Below, piece after piece: positions 47,531-55,039 of a stretch of DNA of 64,000 nt. Numbering within the stretch: position 1 is the stretch's first letter; every line of letters starts with the position of its first letter. Both the position numbers and the translations under genes were made by a program. Origin of the DNA: Armatimonadota bacterium (GTDB taxonomy: Bacteria; Armatimonadota; DTGP01; JAKQQT01); the NCBI GenBank assembly GCA_036504095.1, contig DASXVS010000002.1:118184-182183 (forward strand). Reading direction: 5' to 3'. The notes beneath the pieces were generated by a model, which did no database searches, was not told the origin of the DNA, and saw nothing but the letters and a program-made list of their open reading frames with translations.

Positions 47531-48007
47531 TCATCGTTCTTCGTTCAGCGTTTGCGTGGGCAGGGGGTTCGTCATCCCCTCGGGAACGAGCTCATTGGCG
47601 AACTCGATGACCTTGTCGTCGTTCAATTCGGCGTCATCGTACCCGTTCCACTTCTCCAGGCTCCAGATCTCGGCCACGTTGCCGTTGCCGATAACCACCA
47701 CGTCGCCCTGGATTTCCGCCTTGTCCCGAAGGTATTTCGGAATCAGCACCCGTCCCGCCTCATCCGGCGTCACTTCGGTGGCGGCGCCCATATAGAACCG
47801 CCGCAAAGCGAGGGCCTTCTTATCGGTGTCGGCGATCCGGCCCAGTTTGTCGAGGATCGTCTGCCACTGAGCCGGCGGGTAGAGCGCGATGCAGCCGCTG
47901 AACCCGCGCGTCAGGACGTAGGGCGCCTCGAACGCCTCCCGTAATTTCACGGGAAGAACGAGGCGACCCTTGCTGTCCAGGTTGTGGGTTGTGGAGCCGG
48001 AATACAT
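47531..48007 (-). CDS. mraZ: Transcriptional regulator MraZ
   Basis: LDSKGRLVLPVKLR and a second half VVVIGNGNVAEIWSLEKW; duplicated MraZ/SpoVT-AbrB-like halves; 158 aa. Confidence 0.8.
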   Translation of the reverse strand: MYSGSTTHNLDSKGRLVLPVKLREAFEAPYVLTRGFSGCIALYPPAQWQTILDKLGRIADTDKKALALRRFYMGAATEVTPDEAGRVLIPKYLRDKAEIQGDVVVIGNGNVAEIWSLEKWNGYDDAELNDDKVIEFANELVPEGMTNPLPTQTLNEER

Positions 48008-48039
48008 GGTTCTGGGGGGCCGCTGAGCGGCTCGGGCCG

Positions 48040-48534
48040 TCAGGCCATCGCGACCGCGGGCGCCCTTCGCGCGGTGGCCTCGCTGGCCATATCACGCGCG
48101 CAGACCGTGCAATACACCTTTTCCGACGGGCGGATCTCACCGTCCTCGCCCGGAAGCATCATCGGGGCCGAGAAGGGGTCGACGGCGCCGCACACGCCGC
48201 AGGTTTCAAACGGGATGGACTCACTGCCGGTCGCCCGGACCACATCCTCGATAACCGCCAGAACGATATCCTGCAACGGCAGCTCGACCCGTCCGAACGC
48301 GAAATCGCGCTTCAGGGTGATCTCCAGCCCGTCGAGCAGCGGCAGGGCGCTCACCGGCAGACGGACAAGATACGTCACGACGGGACCGTCGCTGTACAGG
48401 CGTATCTGCCCGACCTGCGCCAGCCCGGCGGCGTATCCCGCCAGATCGTCGCGTTCCACCGTGTTTCTCGGCTCGGCGAAAAAGACCGCGTCCACCGTCT
48501 TTTCGGCCCCACATTGCCTGCTGGCGCGCTTCAT
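48040..48534 (-). CDS. Hypothetical protein with C-terminal zinc-ribbon-like Cys pairs (possibly YceD/DUF177-like)
   Basis: ETCGVCG ... YCTVCARD; 32 nt upstream of mraZ on the same strand. Confidence 0.35.
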   Translation of the reverse strand: MKRASRQCGAEKTVDAVFFAEPRNTVERDDLAGYAAGLAQVGQIRLYSDGPVVTYLVRLPVSALPLLDGLEITLKRDFAFGRVELPLQDIVLAVIEDVVRATGSESIPFETCGVCGAVDPFSAPMMLPGEDGEIRPSEKVYCTVCARDMASEATARRAPAVAMA

Positions 48535-48566
48535 TGCTTGTCTGCCCCCTCTGGAATGGTCGTAAA

Positions 48567-48609
48567 TACCACAAAATGGCTCGGTCTGACACTGCCTACC
48601 ACAAAATGG
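48567..48609 (-). promoter_or_regulatory. Direct repeat TACCACAAAATGG x2 (30-bp periodicity) in the promoter region of the 48040..48534-mraZ operon
   Basis: Two identical 13-mers at 48567..48579 and 48597..48609; the transcribed strand reads CCATTTTGTGGTA. Confidence 0.4.
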
Positions 48610-48696
48610 ATTATGACATGTCCCGTCATGGCGCAGAGGGATCAGGAATGGATTTTCACGCCGGCCGGGTGTTGATAAGTGGCATCAGGCCGGTAC

Positions 48697-48757: not shown

Positions 48758-48863
48758 TAGGACGGGCGTCTCGCCCGCTACCGGGAAAACTTAGCAGGGC
48801 CAATCAAAAGGCGAAACGCGCCCACCGGAAAGGCGCAATCCGGCTCAGCACTTCGGTCAGTAC

Positions 48864-50330
48864 TTACTTCTTCCGCCCATACCCGACTGCCCAGGCGCCT
48901 GCCAACGCGCACAGCGCCACGAACCAGTCGCCGAACCGCACATACGGGGTACGGTCGTTACGCAAGCCCACTGTGCCGCTGAGGGTGCCCGCCTGTCCGA
49001 GCGGCAGCGATTCCTGGACCTCGCCGGAAGGCGAAATGAGCGCGGAGATGCCGGTATGGCCGCACCGGACGACCCAGCGGCGCGTCTCGATGGCCCGTAG
49101 TCGCGCCGCCTCCAGGTGCTGGACCGCCATGCCGGTGCGCCCGAACCAGGCGTCGTTGGTGATGACCACCAGGAGGTTGGCCCCTTCGCGAACGAACGCT
49201 CGGGCGGCTTTGGGAGACGCCGATTCGAAGCAGATCGGCACGCCTAGACGCAAATCCCCCGCCGAGAGCACTTCGTACTTCATCCCCGGCTCTTCATCGC
49301 GTTCCACAACCCCGAAATCGCCCAGGAACGGCAGCACGTGGCGGAGCGGAACGAACTCCCCGAACGGCACCAATTGTCGCTTTCGATAGATCCCCGCGAC
49401 GCTTCGATCCGGCCCGAACAGAACGGCGGCGTTGAACGGCGCGCCGCTTGCCCCGTACCCGATGGCGCCGGTCAGCAGCGGCGCATCGAGGCGGGCCGGA
49501 ACGTCGGTCGCTCGCTGAAGGAGCGCCGGGTCCGCCAGGATGGCCCCCGGCGCAGAAGATTCCGACCACACGATGAGGCCGGCCCCTCCGCCGGCTTTCA
49601 GCGTCGCCGCCCGCATCGCCTCGAACGCGCGGTAGCCCCCGGCGCTGCTCCACGCATCGTTGGAGTCGCCCTGAACACACAGCACCGTCCCAAATTGATG
49701 ATCGCTGTCCGCCGCGCCTGCTCGCGCCCACTCGCTCATCCCATAGCCGATGCCCGTTGCCAACAGCACAACGATGAGACCAGCTATACCGGCGCGTCGC
49801 CCGGCGCGATCCCCTCGGACCAAAAGGAACAACGCGGTTCCCGCGAACGCGACCATCGCGCTCACCATATAGCAACCGCCGATCGAGGCCCATTGCGCCA
49901 CCGGTGTCGCGACGGCCGGCGTTGACAGACCGCCGAACGGGAAGCCATAGGTGCCACTGCCCCGCGCCCATTCTGCAACCGCCCAGATCGCGGGCACGCC
50001 GGCCAGAATCGCCACCCTGGAGCGCCGCAGCACCGCGGCCAGCGCCACCGCGATAGGGATGAACCAGAGCGCCTCGATCGCCGTGAACAACGCCCACGGC
50101 AGGACCGCCATCCAGATCACGCCCTCGCCGAATGAGGTCGTGAACAGGCCGACCCCGCCCATGAATGCCAGACCCATCAGATAGCCGCGGCCGACCGCCT
50201 GTTTCGGCGTCGCGCCGCTCAACGACCACAGCAGTGGAATCAGGGCGAACCAGACGAGGGTATCCCACCCGAACGGCGGAAAGCATGCCGCCAGGAGCAA
50301 ACCGGACAAAAGAGCGGCCAGGGCGCGCAT
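48864..50330 (-). CDS. lnt: Apolipoprotein N-acyltransferase
   Basis: N-terminal multi-TM region followed by a CN-hydrolase domain (LIVWSESS, ICFESA); start by codon arithmetic at MRALAALLSGLLLAAC. Confidence 0.8.
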   Translation of the reverse strand: MRALAALLSGLLLAACFPPFGWDTLVWFALIPLLWSLSGATPKQAVGRGYLMGLAFMGGVGLFTTSFGEGVIWMAVLPWALFTAIEALWFIPIAVALAAVLRRSRVAILAGVPAIWAVAEWARGSGTYGFPFGGLSTPAVATPVAQWASIGGCYMVSAMVAFAGTALFLLVRGDRAGRRAGIAGLIVVLLATGIGYGMSEWARAGAADSDHQFGTVLCVQGDSNDAWSSAGGYRAFEAMRAATLKAGGGAGLIVWSESSAPGAILADPALLQRATDVPARLDAPLLTGAIGYGASGAPFNAAVLFGPDRSVAGIYRKRQLVPFGEFVPLRHVLPFLGDFGVVERDEEPGMKYEVLSAGDLRLGVPICFESASPKAARAFVREGANLLVVITNDAWFGRTGMAVQHLEAARLRAIETRRWVVRCGHTGISALISPSGEVQESLPLGQAGTLSGTVGLRNDRTPYVRFGDWFVALCALAGAWAVGYGRKK

Positions 50331-50379
50331 TTGCCCAGGCCGATTGAGGCATCCTGAGCGCAGCGCAGCGCCCCACCGA

Positions 50380-50470
50380 CTGAAGGCGGCGGTTGTTGCC
50401 CCCCAAAGTCGGCTGAAGCCGACTGCGAACCAGCCGGCTTCAGCCGTCTTCGTACGGCAGACGTTGGCTT
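50380..50470. repeat. GGCTGAAGCCG / CGGCTTCAGCC alternating-orientation word repeats
   Basis: GTCGGCTGAAGCCGAC ... CCGGCTTCAGCCG ... GGCTTCAGCC in the lnt upstream region. Confidence 0.5.
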
Positions 50471-50525
50471 CAGCCAATGGGGCAACGGAATGGTTCAGCG
50501 GGCCTCGGGCGGCTATCATGGGGTC

Positions 50526-51224
50526 ATGAAAATCGTGTCGCTCGTTCACATCGGTATGGTATCATTGTCGGCCGCACTTTTGGCAGGCTGCGCCCGCACT
50601 CCACCCGGAGCCACCACGGGCGCACAGACCCTCGTGACGTTCGAGGTGCAGGTGGCCGGGCAGATCGTACCCGGCGACCCAAATGCCTACTACTACATCG
50701 TTCTGGATACCGACAACAACCCGGCCACCGGGCCGATTCCGGTCGTGGCCCGCCCATGGGGAAACGGGTACGCCGCGGGCTCCTATACCCACTACGTGCT
50801 CTACCATAACGGCGTGTTCGGCGTCTACGAGTCCATCGACCCCAACCATACCACCTCGACCTACCTGGGGCGGCCCCTGCAGGGCGGCATCACAACCACC
50901 AACCGGCCCAACGACACCCTGTTCGTCCAGGTGGACCGCGCTCAGATCGCCGATATTCACCCGGACGTCCGCGCCATCGACGTCAATGTCATCAGCACCG
51001 ACCGCGTGCCGCTCGACCCCCAGGAACTCACCGTTAAGGTAGTGGACGGCCTCGGAGCCTCAGGAAATGACTACGTGACCATCCCGTTCGGCTTCACCAC
51101 CGTCTACACAAACGGCGTGGACCCCGACCCCGCCCATCCCGAGACTCCCCGCGACGCCGACGGACTCGCGAACAACCCTAACCTCGACCTCATTAACTGG
51201 CGCATCACCGTCCAGACACAGTGA
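50526..51224 (+). CDS. Hypothetical lipoprotein
   Basis: Signal peptide with lipobox LLAGCA; no recognisable domain. Confidence 0.5.
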   Translation: MKIVSLVHIGMVSLSAALLAGCARTPPGATTGAQTLVTFEVQVAGQIVPGDPNAYYYIVLDTDNNPATGPIPVVARPWGNGYAAGSYTHYVLYHNGVFGVYESIDPNHTTSTYLGRPLQGGITTTNRPNDTLFVQVDRAQIADIHPDVRAIDVNVISTDRVPLDPQELTVKVVDGLGASGNDYVTIPFGFTTVYTNGVDPDPAHPETPRDADGLANNPNLDLINWRITVQTQ

Positions 51225-51244
51225 CTGGGAAACGATGAATGATG

Positions 51245-51297
51245 TGCGACGAACGATGAAACCGGATTCAGCGCGGAGGATGCAGAGGTAACGCGGA
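51245..51297. repeat. Dispersed word-repeat element copy (direct orientation)
   Basis: CGATGAATGATGTGCGACGAACGATGAAACCGGATTCAGCGCGGAGGATGCAGAGGTAACGCGGAG. Confidence 0.65.
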
Positions 51298-51360
51298 GCA
51301 ATCCCTGACCCAGCGCTGAGCCGTGGGGCCAGCCCCACGTCCGCGGGCGGAAATGGCACT

Positions 51361-51477
51361 AATAGATTCCTCCGTGCACCTCCGTGTGCTCAGTGTCCTC
51401 CGTGGTGAAATTCTCCGCGTTACCTCTGCGTCCCGCTGCGTCCTCCGCGGTGAAGTCGGGAACCTCCGCGTTGAATC
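51361..51477. repeat. Inverted copies of the CGGAGG word-repeat element
   Basis: CTCCGCGTTACCTCTGCGTCC...CCTCCGCGTTGAATCCG is the reverse complement of the 51245 copy; together they bracket the convergent junction with a CGTGGGGC..GCCCCACG mini-hairpin between. Confidence 0.65.
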
Positions 51478-51483
51478 CGAACC

Positions 51484-53703
51484 CTAGAATCCTGGCGGCA
51501 AACTCGACGCCGTGCTGCTCTGCAAATCCCCGCCGCCGATGTTCAAGTTCTCGCCGAACATGCCGGTGGTGAACGGGTCGGCCATCGGGAACGCCTTGAT
51601 CCGTATCAGCACGCGGATCCCCGTCTCGTTGCGCCAGCCTTTGTCGTTGATCAGCGCGACGGACGCCTCGGTGCAACCCATATCCTTCGCGACGAGGAAG
51701 TGGCGGTATCGCTGTCCGCTGTCCGTGCCGGCGAGAGCCCGCACGCGCCAGTCGCGGCCGACGGGCGTGTCGAGGCTGCCCAGCAGCCGTCCGAACCGTC
51801 CTGTCGCCGGTATGTAGCGGCCTTCGCCGTCGAAGTGGAGCCCGCCCAGCCGCAGCCGAAGGCCGCTGTTCACGTAGCGCACTTTTGACGTCTCGCCCGG
51901 CGCCTTGCCGTTCACGTTGATCGCCGCGTTGGTCACCCATCGTATCCCGGGAGTGGGCTGCACGATCGCCATCGCCAGGAGGTCGCGCCAGGGCGTGAGG
52001 TGGTTGCGGAAGTCATACGCCGTGCCGGCGCGGAGCTCCAGGGCGCGCATATCGGCCAGTTTCACTGTGCCGCTGAGGCTCTCGTACGCGAACGGACGGT
52101 CGAACTGGAACGGCGTGTAGCCCTTCGGCTTCGAGACGCTGTAGCTCAGCGTGAAGTCCGATTTGCGACCGAGAGGCTGCGTGACGCCCAGGTTGCCGGT
52201 CAGCGTGTAGAGCGCTGCGTCACTTGTGTAGATCGCCTGCCGAAATCCGCCGCCCACGTTCAACGTCAGCGATCCGGCCTTCCACCGCCGGTTCGGCGCG
52301 GTTGCCTCGAACAACTGCCGCCCCCCGCGATGCCCGTTCGCCTCGAACGAGCCGTCCGCCAGCGTGAGCGCAACCGGCGCCGATTTGGACGCGGTCAGCC
52401 CGAGCCTATACGCGTCCGATTTGAGCGTGAGTTCCGGCAGCCGCTGGACCGGCAGATACAGCCCGCCCGTTTCGCCGCCTCCGTGGACCGCTATATGGTT
52501 GGCCGCCAGTTCCACATCCACCGCGTTGAAGCCCTGCGCCACGCTGATCTTGTGGTCTACTTCGCTCGTGGCCGGGATGCCCGCCGATGACTGCCGCGTG
52601 CTGTCGACGCCGAATTGGAGGGTCCCCTTGGGGTCGAATTTGTACGCCTGCGCGAATCCTGCCGTCACGCCCTGGTATTTGCCGCCGCCCGACTTGCTGC
52701 CGTTGTAGCGGAGCGACAAACGGGTGTCCGATGCGCCCACCGCGCGTGCCATCGAGATCCCGGCGCTGCGCGACGTGCTGCCGGGCACATACAGGTAGGA
52801 GTTCTTCCGAAGTTCGCCTTCCAGCTGCGTGTCGAAGCCAAGGATCTTGCGGTTGTCGCGCAGATTGGCGCTCAGGTTGCGCCCCGCCTGCCCCGTCACC
52901 GAATACAACGACACCTCCCCCTTGCCGTTGGGCGCATAGTCGTGCGTAACTCCGAGGCCGAGCCCCTGCTTCTGCATTACGTCCACATGCACCGCGCCCG
53001 TCTGCCCGCCCCGGGCATAGTTCAGCAGCGTCTTAAGGAAGAAGCCTTCCTCCGTGCTCTGCCCCACCACCGGCACGACCGGCGCCTGCCCGCCCTGCTG
53101 CTTGATAGGAAAAACCAGCGTCGGCACGGTGGCCAGCCTCCGTCCGAACAGCAGCGTGGTCGCGTGCCGTGCGATGACCTTCCGGTCCGGCAGGATGGTC
53201 ACCTCTCGGGCGACGACCTCGTACTGCGGCCGCACCGGATCGCACGAGGTGATGTGCGCGTTGTAGAGCGTGATCTCGCGCCTGGATCCCTTAATGCTCT
53301 CCGCCATCACGTGGAATGGTGAAAGCGCGCCCACGGGGGTCACATCCGTGGTCGACTTGCTCATCGACCACTCCCGCGTCTTGATGTTGAACTCCAGGAA
53401 GCTGTCCGCGCCGCCGCTGACGGTCTCTTTGCCGGTGTCCAGCGCCACGTTTCCGCGCAGGATGGCCGTCGACGTCGTCTCGTCGAAATCGCCCGCGTCC
53501 CCGGTCAAAACGTACTGCTTGTGCGTGATGCGAACGTGGCCCGCCGCGACCCAGTGCTTCGCGGACTCCTCGTAGTGGGTGATATCGGCCGAAATTGTGG
53601 CGTTCGGCGCGGGCGCGAGCGGCAGGCCGGGCGCGGTCTGCCCCAGTGCGCGCGGGGCGCAGAGGAGGGCAATCGCAGCGACGGCGGTTATTCCTCGCGC
53701 CAT
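51484..53703 (-). CDS. lptD: LPS-assembly protein LptD-like (OstA N-terminal domain plus outer-membrane beta-barrel)
   Basis: Signal peptide MARGITAVAAIALLCAPRALGQ; OstA-like N-terminal segment; long beta-rich C-terminal region; start by codon arithmetic. Confidence 0.65.
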   Translation of the reverse strand: MARGITAVAAIALLCAPRALGQTAPGLPLAPAPNATISADITHYEESAKHWVAAGHVRITHKQYVLTGDAGDFDETTSTAILRGNVALDTGKETVSGGADSFLEFNIKTREWSMSKSTTDVTPVGALSPFHVMAESIKGSRREITLYNAHITSCDPVRPQYEVVAREVTILPDRKVIARHATTLLFGRRLATVPTLVFPIKQQGGQAPVVPVVGQSTEEGFFLKTLLNYARGGQTGAVHVDVMQKQGLGLGVTHDYAPNGKGEVSLYSVTGQAGRNLSANLRDNRKILGFDTQLEGELRKNSYLYVPGSTSRSAGISMARAVGASDTRLSLRYNGSKSGGGKYQGVTAGFAQAYKFDPKGTLQFGVDSTRQSSAGIPATSEVDHKISVAQGFNAVDVELAANHIAVHGGGETGGLYLPVQRLPELTLKSDAYRLGLTASKSAPVALTLADGSFEANGHRGGRQLFEATAPNRRWKAGSLTLNVGGGFRQAIYTSDAALYTLTGNLGVTQPLGRKSDFTLSYSVSKPKGYTPFQFDRPFAYESLSGTVKLADMRALELRAGTAYDFRNHLTPWRDLLAMAIVQPTPGIRWVTNAAINVNGKAPGETSKVRYVNSGLRLRLGGLHFDGEGRYIPATGRFGRLLGSLDTPVGRDWRVRALAGTDSGQRYRHFLVAKDMGCTEASVALINDKGWRNETGIRVLIRIKAFPMADPFTTGMFGENLNIGGGDLQSSTASSLPPGF

Positions 53704-54782
53704 ATCAGCCACGCTCCCACGCCGGTGAAGACCGCGTTCGGCAGCCACGCCGCCAGCACAGGCGGCAGCACCGAACCGCCCATTTCCTTGAAGAACAGGT
53801 ATCCCTGCACGTAGAGGAAGAAGAGCACCAGCGCGATCAGGATGCCCGTGAAGCCGCCACCGCGGCCGAAATGCACCGCCAGCGGCAGACTGATGATCGT
53901 CAGCACCACGCACGCGAACGGCAGCGCGAATTTCAGGTAGTAATCCACCTTCCATTCCCGCGTGTTCGGGTTGCCGGTCCTCACCCCCTCCGCGATCGCC
54001 CGCGACAACTGCATCGCGTTCATCTCGTCCGTCGTCTGCGCCATCGTCCACAGCGTGCCCACCGTCCGGTCAACGTCGAACGTGAACTTGGGGAACGCGA
54101 CCTCGTTGGTGGTGAACCCGCGCGCATCCATCTCGCGCCGCACGCCCCGGTACAGAGTCCATTTGGTGCCGCTGGCGGTGGCCGTCTCGGCGGTGTACAG
54201 GACCGGATACGTGCCGGACCGCATCTCGTAGACCATCACGCGCGTCAGCAGAAACGCCACCTCGTTCGGGTTGGCGGAATCCCGCGTCTTCTGCATGTCG
54301 CCGATGTAGAACTTGAACTGCCCCGTGCCGAAGAAGACGTCGCTGCGGATGGAGATCGGTCGCACCTTGAAGAACAGGCGGTACTCCGCCATCGACGCGC
54401 GGTGGTTCATCATCGGGGCGATGGTCTCATTGATGTAGAAGCTCGCCACGCTGATCAGCGCGGCGACGACCATCATGGGGACGAGGATGCGCTTCAACGG
54501 CATCCCGCTCAGGCGCATGACGGTGATCTCGTTCTCGCGCGCCATCCGGTTCACGCCCAGCGACACGCCGAACAGCACCGCCACCGGCAGCGCGTATACG
54601 ATGAACTGCGGCATCCGGTAGGCGATGACCTTCGCTACTTGCGAAAGCGCCGCGCGGTCGTTCATCACCAGCCGGAACAGGTTCATCAGCACCGCGCTGA
54701 CCTGCATCAGCAGGAAGCCGAACACCCCAACGAGGAACGGCGCCAGCAGCTCGCGCGCCAGATATCGGTCGGCCGTCTTCAC
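53688..54782 (-). CDS. LPS export ABC permease LptF/LptG family (YjgP/YjgQ)
   Basis: DRYLARELLAPFLVGVFGFLLM N-terminus and permease layout; proposed GTG start at codon 28 because the upstream 27 codons are encoded by a GATGAA word repeat. Confidence 0.7.
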   Translation of the reverse strand: MKTADRYLARELLAPFLVGVFGFLLMQVSAVLMNLFRLVMNDRAALSQVAKVIAYRMPQFIVYALPVAVLFGVSLGVNRMARENEITVMRLSGMPLKRILVPMMVVAALISVASFYINETIAPMMNHRASMAEYRLFFKVRPISIRSDVFFGTGQFKFYIGDMQKTRDSANPNEVAFLLTRVMVYEMRSGTYPVLYTAETATASGTKWTLYRGVRREMDARGFTTNEVAFPKFTFDVDRTVGTLWTMAQTTDEMNAMQLSRAIAEGVRTGNPNTREWKVDYYLKFALPFACVVLTIISLPLAVHFGRGGGFTGILIALVLFFLYVQGYLFFKEMGGSVLPPVLAAWLPNAVFTGVGAWLIWREE

Positions 54783-54783
54783 G

Positions 54784-54850
54784 CTATGAGTATAGGGAAC
54801 GAAGCGATGAATGATGAACGATGGGCGATGAATAGCGGAGGCGGATTGAG
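54784..54850. repeat. Diverged copy of the GATGAA/CGGAGG word-repeat element
   Basis: GAACGAAGCGATGAATGATGAACGATGGGCGATGAATAGCGGAGGCGGATTGAGC. Confidence 0.55.
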
Positions 54851-55039
54851 CTTGGAGGGACACAGAGAAAGCTGGTGATGGGCGTCCGGACAGGAGTGGA
54901 AGACCGAAGCGCTACCTTCCGTCCGCTCTCTTCCAAGGAATCACCGTTCCTGACGGGACCGGTCCTTCACGGTGAAAGTATGGTCCAGCCCTGCCGGACG
55001 CCCGGGATTGGCGTCCAGCAGGACACACCACTTGGACCG

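What the first reader, a model, noticed from the sequence alone, without database searches (positions are those of the whole stretch)
47531..48611. mraZ without a dcw cluster, preceded by a small Zn-ribbon gene and a 13-bp direct repeat
mraZ normally heads the division/cell-wall cluster (rsmH, ftsL and so on). Here the downstream genes are a VOC protein and pilins, and a 164-aa Cys-pair protein lies 32 nt upstream. The promoter region has TACCACAAAATGG twice, 30 bp apart; the transcribed strand contains GTGG, reminiscent of the GTGGG-type direct repeats bound by MraZ in E. coli.
Basis: partly seen in the sequence, partly recalled or inferred. Interest (0 to 1): 0.45.

Follow-up and report, generated by a model that had tools for sequence, protein, structure and literature searches.

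The report
MraZ operator driving a new partner gene
In this Armatimonadota genome the cell-division regulator gene mraZ is not attached to the division/cell-wall genes; it forms a conserved two-gene unit with an uncharacterised zinc-ribbon protein, behind a promoter that carries what look like standard MraZ binding boxes.

Summary
mraZ (47531-48007, -) is a genuine MraZ. A 164-aa four-Cys ORF ("X", 48040-48534, -) lies 32 nt upstream. TACCACAAAATGG occurs exactly twice (48567-79, 48597-609). No dcw gene was found among 38 window proteins scanned.

The functional unit is probably the GTG(G/T) core inside the 13-mer, not the 13-mer itself. On the coding strand, boxes sit at 0, +10 and +30, starting 7 nt after an extended -10 (TGtCATAAT). 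This matches the published MraZ operator: GTG(G/T) boxes with 6-nt spacers and the TSS in box 1.

X is an Armatimonadota-restricted family of about 43 clusters with no Pfam or NCBIfam match. Its model shows a ferredoxin-like domain plus a CxxC...CxxC ribbon.
- mraZ follows X immediately in 24 of 26 informative loci.
- About 20 loci have TTGACA-N17/18-TATAAT followed by 3-5 GTGG boxes at a 10-bp period. One of these has X without an adjacent mraZ.
- Genes after mraZ are unrelated and often convergent.

Best reading: a MraZ-autorepressed bicistronic X-mraZ operon, detached from dcw. This is a new variant of a known system. X's function, MraZ binding, and the location of rsmH/ftsL/ftsI in this genome were not tested.

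The parts
48810..48826 (-). Terminator-like hairpin plus T-tract after lnt (48864-50549). It marks the upstream boundary of the X-mraZ transcription unit.
   Evidence: Consensus scan. lnt identified by LNT_N + CN_hydrolase.
48668..48684 (-). Conserved block TGCCACTTATCAACACC, about 50 nt upstream of the -10. Role unknown. L005 and L008 carry related TTGACACC-containing blocks.
   Evidence: Invariant in window, L001 and L002 (alignment A4). L005 and L008 sequences.
48626..48640 (-). Conserved block CCCTCTGCGCCATGA covering the weak -35 position.
   Evidence: Alignment A4.
48610..48618 (-). Extended -10-like element TGtCATAAT (hexamer CATAAT at 48615-48610). The TSS is inferred at about 48603-48601.
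   Evidence: Invariant TG-n-CATAAT in window, L001 and L002. The first box lies 7 nt after the -10, the same geometry as in L013, L027, L030 and L031. The generic scan found no full -35/-10 pair on this strand.
48597..48609 (-). Distal copy of the 13-mer (CCATTTTGTGGTA on the coding strand). Contains MraZ-type box 1, GTGG, at 48602-48599.
48589..48592 (-). Box 2, GTGT, 10 nt after box 1.
   Evidence: GTG is invariant here in window, L001 and L002.
48567..48579 (-). Proximal copy of the 13-mer. Contains the box at +30, GTGG, at 48572-48569. The +20 slot (GAGC) is unoccupied.
48545..48559 (-). Leader motif CCATT (48559-48555) plus Shine-Dalgarno-like GAGGGGG (48551-48545), 10 nt before the ATG.
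   Evidence: GACCATTyCAG is invariant in window, L001 and L002. CCATT lies at -75, -45 and -25 from the ATG.
48040..48534 (-). Gene X: 164 aa, acidic, with a ferredoxin-like N-domain, a C-terminal CxxC...CxxC zinc ribbon and an Ala-rich C-terminus. Member of an Armatimonadota-restricted family with no Pfam or NCBIfam match.
48008..48039 (-). 32-nt X-mraZ spacer with no promoter-like or terminator-like site. Consistent with co-transcription.
47531..48007 (-). mraZ: 158 aa with two MraZ/AbrB-type repeats. It keeps D11xK13xR15 and D82xxxR86.
   Evidence: Residue roles from PMC12957436 and the B. subtilis preprint.

Best explanation
The region is a two-gene operon, X-mraZ, with its own promoter downstream of the lnt terminator.

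Proposed mechanism:
1. The promoter is an extended -10 (TGtCATAAT).
2. It is followed at once by MraZ-type GTG(G/T) boxes at 10-bp phasing: GTGG at 48602-599, GTGT at 48592-589 and GTGG at 48572-569. The two copies of the 13-mer contain boxes 1 and 3.
3. MraZ here keeps the DNA-contacting K13, R15 and R86. It is proposed to bind these boxes as an oligomer across the transcription start and repress its own operon, as at canonical Pmra promoters.
4. What differs is the output. The operator does not control mraZ-rsmH-ftsL-ftsI. It controls X, an Armatimonadota-specific acidic protein with a ferredoxin-like domain and a zinc ribbon, together with mraZ itself. The operon ends after mraZ.
5. X is therefore the conserved MraZ-controlled gene of this phylum. 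It most probably acts through protein or ligand binding, as a partner, modulator or effector of MraZ, and not by binding DNA.

Shown: gene identities, repeat and box positions, conservation of the X-mraZ pair, conservation of the promoter plus boxes, and absence of dcw genes nearby.

Inferred: MraZ binding and repression, the TSS, co-transcription, and any role of X.
For: MraZ identity:
- PF02381 and TIGR00242 score above their cutoffs.
- NCBI names the protein MraZ. Its nearest relatives outside the clade are canonical MraZ proteins at 43-45% identity.
- D11/K13/R15/D82 are invariant in the X-linked MraZ alignment, and R86 is present in the window protein.

Operator:
- Box geometry matches the published consensus of GTG(G/T) boxes with 6-nt spacers and the TSS inside box 1 (PMC12957436). 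It also matches GTGG[A/T]G x3 in B. subtilis.
- The boxes at 0/+10/+30 are conserved in L001 (GTGGG x3) and L002, while the flanking bases vary.
- About 20 loci have TTGACA-N17/18-TATAAT followed 2-8 nt later by 3-5 GTGG boxes at a 10-bp period.
- All 11 triple-GTGG hits in 192 kb x 2 strands lie upstream of X.
- L017/L018 have X without an adjacent mraZ yet keep four boxes.

Operon:
- mraZ follows X directly in 24 of 26 informative loci, down to 25-30% X identity.
- Genes after mraZ are convergent or unrelated.
- A terminator-like hairpin follows lnt.

X:
- It is a real family, with 45 HMMER hits of which about 43 are genuine.
- C112, C115 and G50 are invariant. C142, C145 and PF are at least 90% conserved.
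- The AF2 model has pLDDT 87.5.
- The core is acidic, with median pI about 5.
Against: - There is no binding, expression or TSS data. Everything about regulation is comparative inference.
- The window operator is degenerate. It has two GTGG boxes plus one GTGT, the +20 slot is empty, and it lacks the contiguous triplet of most relatives.
- Some short-form relatives have only one GTGG box (L004, L008) or none (L005).
- The 13-mer is longer than a MraZ core. A second motif, CCATT, is phased with it at -75/-45/-25. L005 has three CCATT boxes at a 10-bp period and no GTGG. This could mean a different or additional binding factor.
- The generic promoter scan found no full -35/-10 pair on the - strand.
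- I could not establish whether the genome has a second, dcw-linked mraZ, or where rsmH is.
Confidence: 0.75

Rival explanations
1. The 13-bp repeats are bound by a factor other than MraZ. This could be an unrelated direct-repeat-binding regulator, or X itself. In that case the GTGG inside them is incidental in this lineage.
For: - The repeat unit is 13 bp at 30-bp spacing, not 4-5 bp at 10-bp spacing.
- CCATT is phased at -75/-45/-25 and is about 40-fold enriched over the window background.
- L005 has three CCATT boxes at a 10-bp period and no GTGG.
- Two further conserved upstream blocks of unknown role exist.
Against: - In L001 the CCATT and flanks of the 13-mer are lost, while GTGGG is kept at exactly 0/+10/+30.
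- The long-form clade has pure GTGG boxes and no CCATT.
- X is acidic, so it is an unlikely DNA binder.
- The boxes match the experimentally defined MraZ consensus.
Confidence: 0.12
2. X-mraZ is a toxin-antitoxin-like or otherwise selfish bicistronic module. It would have an AbrB/MazE-fold DNA binder and a labile acidic partner, and would be unrelated to division control.
For: - The unit is bicistronic with autoregulatory direct repeats.
- Pfam describes MraZ as 'putative antitoxin-like'.
- X is acidic and often ends in Ala-rich ssrA-like tails: LAS, IAS, VAA, LAA, AMA.
- MraZ overproduction is toxic in model bacteria (own knowledge; for B. subtilis).
Against: - There are no PADLOC hits.
- The loci seen look single-copy and vertically inherited, with clade-stable neighbours. 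lnt lies upstream in the window, L005 and L008. A convergent gidB/STAS-HATPase cluster is present in L014, L023, L027 and probably L031, where the ORF layout is similar but was not scanned.
- The MraZ scores as the housekeeping equivalog.
- No mobile-element genes are nearby.
Confidence: 0.06
3. The duplicate 13-mer is a recent local duplication or slippage product with no function of its own. Only the promoter matters.
For: - The two copies are perfectly identical, although only the cores are conserved in L001.
- The window operator is less regular than those of relatives.
Against: - The positions of the GTG cores are invariant across window, L001 and L002, while the surrounding bases diverge.
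- The same phased arrangement recurs in more than 20 loci, down to 25% X identity.
Confidence: 0.05

Closest known systems
Canonical MraZ-Pmra autoregulatory circuit (E. coli, B. subtilis, Mycoplasma)
   Same: - MraZ has two DxxxR motifs (K13/R15/R86).
- The operator consists of repeated GTG(G/T) boxes at a 10-bp period, immediately downstream of the -10 and overlapping the expected TSS.
- The operator sits at the promoter of the operon that encodes MraZ.
   Different: - mraZ is the second gene, not the first. A lineage-specific gene X lies between the operator and mraZ.
- No rsmH, ftsL or ftsI follows, and the operon ends after mraZ.
- In the window the box array has a gap (0/+10/+30) and a 13-bp extended repeat.
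AbrB/SpoVT-type regulators with small protein antagonists (for example AbrB-AbbA), and the MraZ-RsmH antagonism reported in E. coli (own knowledge)
   Same: A swapped-hairpin, AbrB-like DNA binder is encoded beside a small acidic protein that could modulate it. X is acidic and has a protein- or ligand-binding type fold.
   Different: - No sequence or specific structural similarity of X to AbbA or RsmH was found.
- An interaction between X and MraZ is untested.
- X carries a four-Cys ribbon, which those proteins lack.
ACT/PII/bS6-type ferredoxin-like domains
   Different: - The similarity is at fold level only. Foldseek E is at least 0.013.
- There are no Pfam, NCBIfam or PDB sequence matches.
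- The fusion to a C-terminal zinc ribbon is not a feature of those families.

Membership tests
MraZ (PF02381 / TIGR00242) | Two tandem MraZ (SpoVT/AbrB-like) repeats scoring above the curated thresholds | tested here: met
   PF02381 at 106.8 bits against a cutoff of 23, in 2 stretches. TIGR00242 equivalog at 117.2 bits against a cutoff of 98.35.
MraZ (PF02381 / TIGR00242) | DNA-contacting residues: two DxxxR motifs, and K13, R15, R86 in M. genitalium numbering | tested here: met
   The window protein has D11-S-K13-G-R15 and D82-E-A-G-R86. Roles of these residues come from PMC12957436 and the B. subtilis preprint.
MraZ (PF02381 / TIGR00242) | First gene of the dcw cluster, followed by rsmH/mraW | tested here: not met
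   - mraZ is followed by VOC, pilin-like and Wzy_C genes.
- No dcw domain was found in 38 window proteins.
- The same holds in L005, L008, L014, L019, L023, L027 and L033.
- This is a contextual feature, not a sequence-defining one.
MraZ operator (MraZ binding repeats) | [quoted passage not shown] | tested here: inconclusive
   The window has GTGG, GTGT and GTGG at 0/+10/+30, with the +20 slot empty. The feature is fully met in about 20 related loci, which have 3-5 contiguous boxes.
MraZ operator (MraZ binding repeats) | Located at the promoter of the mraZ-containing operon, overlapping the TSS | tested here: inconclusive
   The first box starts 7 nt after a conserved TGnCATAAT. The TSS was not mapped. 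Relatives have a consensus TTGACA-N17/18-TATAAT 2-8 nt before box 1.
MraZ operator (MraZ binding repeats) | Bound by MraZ, with repression that depends on the boxes | not testable with these tools
   Requires EMSA, footprinting or reporter assays.
Zinc ribbon | Two CxxC knuckles conserved across the family and brought together in the fold | tested here: met
   C112 and C115 are invariant. C142 and C145 are at least 90% conserved in 33 sequences. AF2 predicts short beta-hairpins at 124-140, with pLDDT 82-90. Metal binding was not tested.
ACT domain family | Sequence-profile match to ACT families, and a ligand-binding interface | tested here: not met
   No Pfam or NCBIfam hit. Only generic fold similarity.
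Type II toxin-antitoxin / defence module | A recognisable toxin or defence domain, with mobile or patchy distribution | tested here: not met
   No PADLOC hit. Neighbours are stable within each clade.

The most novel reading that the evidence does not exclude
In Armatimonadota, MraZ has been rewired away from the dcw operon into a self-contained switch. X would be a labile, Zn-binding, ACT-like sensor protein, possibly ClpXP-targeted through its Ala-rich C-terminus. It would be MraZ's dedicated partner, either as anti-repressor or co-repressor, or as the sole effector through which MraZ acts on division and the envelope. X would thus replace the RsmH/FtsL linkage seen in other bacteria.

This would give a natural system in which MraZ's still-unclear physiological role is separated from dcw transcription.
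Probability: 0.25. Interest if true: 0.7.

Novelty: new variant of a known kind. Interest (0 to 1): 0.55.

Why it matters
MraZ is one of the most conserved bacterial regulators, yet its physiological role remains unclear. One reason is that it almost always sits at the head of the essential dcw operon, so its regulon and its own cluster are hard to separate.

Here a whole lineage keeps MraZ, its DNA-contacting residues and its operator. The operator, however, drives a previously undescribed protein family plus mraZ only. This identifies X as a candidate MraZ partner or effector.

It also offers a test of what MraZ does when it is not transcriptionally tied to ftsL/ftsI, and it extends the known range of MraZ operator architectures.

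Tried and rejected
The single-protein scan returned only an unrelated Terriglobia locus, L016. The MraZ homology search showed no second MraZ from the same MAG, but this is a weak test.
- The afdb50 fold library was unavailable.
- Longer X homologues gave no clue. P0026, P0020 and P0008 have no Pfam domain in their extensions. P0033 (VWD/C8) and P0048 (WD40) are spurious Cys-rich hits.
- There is no RNA element. Rfam returned nothing relevant. The leader plus X and the post-mraZ spacer fold no better than shuffles.
- DnaA boxes were considered and rejected. TTTGTGGTA and TTATCAACA do not fit TTATNCACA without mismatches at core positions (by inspection).
- No other MraZ targets were found in the window. 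There is no further 13-mer copy. The five GTGG-N6-GTGG pairs all lie in GC-rich sequence without the promoter-like, A-rich flanks of the X operators (their positions relative to genes were not checked).
- Eraso et al. 2014 (E. coli MraZ) is not in the paper library. Statements about it rest on my own knowledge.

Full report
**1. Observation**

The window is from an Armatimonadota MAG with 63.7% GC. The exact-match protein P0001 is NCBI "VGM51_00920 [Armatimonadota bacterium]", on a 218-kb contig. The features below are all on the - strand.

- lnt lies at 48864-50549 (LNT_N + CN_hydrolase).
- A 329-nt spacer follows.
- Gene X, 164 aa, lies at 48040-48534.
- A 32-nt gap follows.
- mraZ lies at 47531-48007.
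- Downstream are a VOC/glyoxalase gene, a pilin-like gene and a Wzy_C gene.

mraZ is genuine. PF02381 scores 5.5e-31 with both repeats, and the TIGR00242 equivalog scores 117 bits against a cutoff of 98. X has a coding-type codon GC profile (GC3 0.82) and no Pfam, NCBIfam or PADLOC match.

TACCACAAAATGG is exact at 48567-79 and 48597-609 and occurs nowhere else in the window. Pfam scans of 38 window proteins found no rsmH, ftsL/I/W/Q/A/Z, mraY or mur gene.

**2. What the repeat is**

On the coding strand each 13-mer reads CCATTTTGTGGTA. I aligned the upstream regions of the two closest relatives, L001 and L002, whose X proteins are about 82% identical. The 13-mer itself is not the conserved unit. 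The conserved elements are:
- a TGnCATAAT extended -10-like element (48618-48610);
- GTG(G/T) cores at fixed offsets of 0, +10 and +30.

The cores read GTGG/GTGT/GTGG in the window and L002, and GTGGG x3 in L001. In L001 the CCATTTT flank is lost.

[quoted passage not shown] In M. genitalium the TSS lies inside box 1, and recognition is by K13, R15 and R86 (PMC12957436). B. subtilis has GTGG[A/T]G x3, required for repression (bioRxiv 10.1101/2022.02.09.479790).

The window MraZ keeps D11-x-K13-x-R15 and D82-xxx-R86. Box 1 begins 7 nt after the -10 hexamer, which puts a typical TSS in or next to box 1. This TSS position is inferred.

**3. Gene X is a real, lineage-restricted family**

An exhaustive HMMER search of 1.84 billion representatives found 45 hits.
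- Two are spurious Cys-rich or WD40 proteins.
- The remaining members are 160-250 aa.
- Every member that carries an organism name is from Armatimonadota.

The alignment shows the following:
- G50, C112 and C115 are invariant.
- F80, P120, F121, C142 and C145 are at least 90% conserved, giving CxxC...PF(P)...YCxxC.

AlphaFold2 with this alignment gives pLDDT 87.5. The model has an N-terminal beta-alpha-beta-beta-alpha-beta ferredoxin-like domain, then a beta-hairpin zinc ribbon and a terminal helix.

The conserved core is acidic, with median pI about 5. This argues against direct nucleic-acid binding.

Many members end, after a variable linker, in small Ala-rich tails: LAS, IAS, VAA, LAA, AVA, and AMA in the window. 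These resemble ssrA-type C-terminal degrons. I have not tested this idea.

**4. X-mraZ is a conserved operon with a conserved MraZ-type operator**

I examined contigs carrying X homologues down to 25-30% identity.

Synteny:
- mraZ follows X immediately on the same strand in 24 distinct loci: the window, L001-L005, L008, L011, L012, L014, L019, L020-L025, L027-L031, L033 and L034.
- Two loci are too short to tell (L013, L026).
- Two are exceptions (L017/L018 and L032).

End of the operon:
- The genes after mraZ are unrelated and often convergent. They include STAS/HATPase, GidB, GH32 and PriA genes.
- The unit therefore ends after mraZ, and no dcw gene lies within up to 10 kb.

Operator:
- Upstream of X, about 20 loci show a near-consensus TTGACA-N17/18-TATAAT, followed 2-8 nt later by 3-5 GTGG(T/G) boxes at a 10-bp period.
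- All 11 occurrences of GTGG-N6-GTGG-N6-GTGG in 192 kb x 2 strands lie upstream of X, on its strand. The same is true of all 6 occurrences of the 0/+10/+30 pattern.
- L017/L018 have X without an adjacent mraZ and still carry the promoter plus four boxes. This points to X, and not just mraZ, as the controlled gene.
- L032 lacks both mraZ and the boxes.

Transcription unit in the window:
- A terminator-like hairpin follows lnt at 48826-48810, consistent with a separate unit.
- lnt-X-mraZ synteny recurs in L005 and L008.

**5. Mechanism proposed**

MraZ oligomers bind the phased boxes across the TSS of P(X-mraZ) and repress it. This would be negative autoregulation with X as co-regulated output.

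- Shown: sequence identities, geometry and conservation.
- Inferred: binding, repression, the TSS and co-transcription.
- X's role is unknown. From its acidity, fold, tight linkage and possible degron, I favour a protein- or ligand-binding partner or effector of MraZ over a DNA binder.

**6. Caveats and loose ends**

- The window operator is less regular than most. It has a gap at +20 and one GTGT box.
- Short-form relatives L004 and L008 have one GTGG box.
- L005 has none. It has three CCATT boxes at an exact 10-bp period instead.
- In the window, CCATT also sits at -75, -45 and -25 from the ATG, in phase with the GTGG boxes. The extended 13-mer may therefore reflect a lineage-specific extension of the site or a second factor.
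- Two further conserved upstream blocks (48684-48668 and 48640-48626) are unexplained.
- I could not determine where rsmH/ftsL/ftsI lie in this genome, or whether a second mraZ exists.
- Armatimonadetes genomes are reported to scatter otherwise conserved clusters (PMC4072686; PMC4959169 abstract). Loss of dcw linkage fits a phylum-wide tendency.

**7. Comparison and novelty**

The regulator and operator are canonical and already known. Three things appear not to have been described before:
- the conserved placement of an uncharacterised gene between operator and mraZ;
- the bicistronic X-mraZ unit detached from dcw across a phylum-level lineage;
- the X family itself.

Literature searches for MraZ in Armatimonadetes, and for dcw synteny across phyla, found no description of this arrangement.

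Verdict: a new variant of a known system, of moderate interest.

Noticed in passing
window 46750, 47505, 48709, 51267-51475 (and 5594): A short dispersed repeat, CTCCGYGGTGAA, gives 8 hits with up to 1 mismatch against 1.2 expected. Apart from 5594, the copies lie in the spacers between genes, including both flanks of X-mraZ, so it looks like a REP-type element. Similar sequence occurs upstream of X in L001 and L002.
   Followed up: partly
L005 9959-9983 (CCATT at -42/-32/-22 from the X start); window 48609, 48579, 48559: L005 has three CCATT(T) boxes at an exact 10-bp period in the X leader and no GTGG box. In the window, CCATT lies at -75/-45/-25, in phase with the GTGG boxes. GACCATTyCAG next to the RBS is invariant in window, L001 and L002. 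The meaning is unknown.
   Followed up: partly
L016 5824-5858 (Terriglobia MAG, canonical mraZ-rsmH-ftsL): Upstream of this canonical mraZ there are four CCCA(T) boxes at a 10-bp period just after a TTGACG. These are TGGG-type boxes in the opposite orientation relative to mraZ.
   Followed up: no
X family C-termini (P0001-P0053; window 48040-48060): Most family members end in small Ala-rich tails (LAS, IAS, VAA, LAA, AVA, AMA, or AAG/ATG) after a variable linker. This is reminiscent of ssrA-like ClpXP degrons.
   Followed up: partly
window 48668-48684 and 48626-48640 (- strand): Two blocks are invariant in window, L001 and L002, upstream of the -10: TGCCACTTATCAACACC and CCCTCTGCGCCATGA. L005 and L008 carry a related ...ACT(A/T)TTTGACACC block, but at the wrong spacing to serve as a -35 for the CATAAT element.
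   Followed up: partly
L014 1893-6510, L023 2759-6589, L027 3237-5178, L031 2339-5916: In the long-form X clade, X-mraZ is convergent with a conserved cluster in L014, L023 and L027. The cluster comprises a small ORF, a STAS+HATPase protein and gidB/rsmG (16S rRNA methyltransferase). L014 also has a response-regulator-GAF-SpoIIE (PP2C) protein there. L031 has a similar ORF layout but was not scanned.
   Followed up: no
L032 1909-2445 (contig of P0026); L017 10001-10639: There are two exceptions to X-mraZ linkage. L032 has an X homologue, annotated as 445 aa, with neither mraZ nor boxes. L017/L018 have X alone, but with the promoter and four GTGG boxes.
   Followed up: partly
window 48864-54863 (- strand): The genes upstream of X-mraZ relate to the outer membrane or envelope: LptF/G (53688-54863), a large LptD-like protein (51484-54051, weak NCBIfam hit only) and lnt. 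Downstream are a Wzy_C protein and several pilin-like N_methyl proteins.
   Followed up: no
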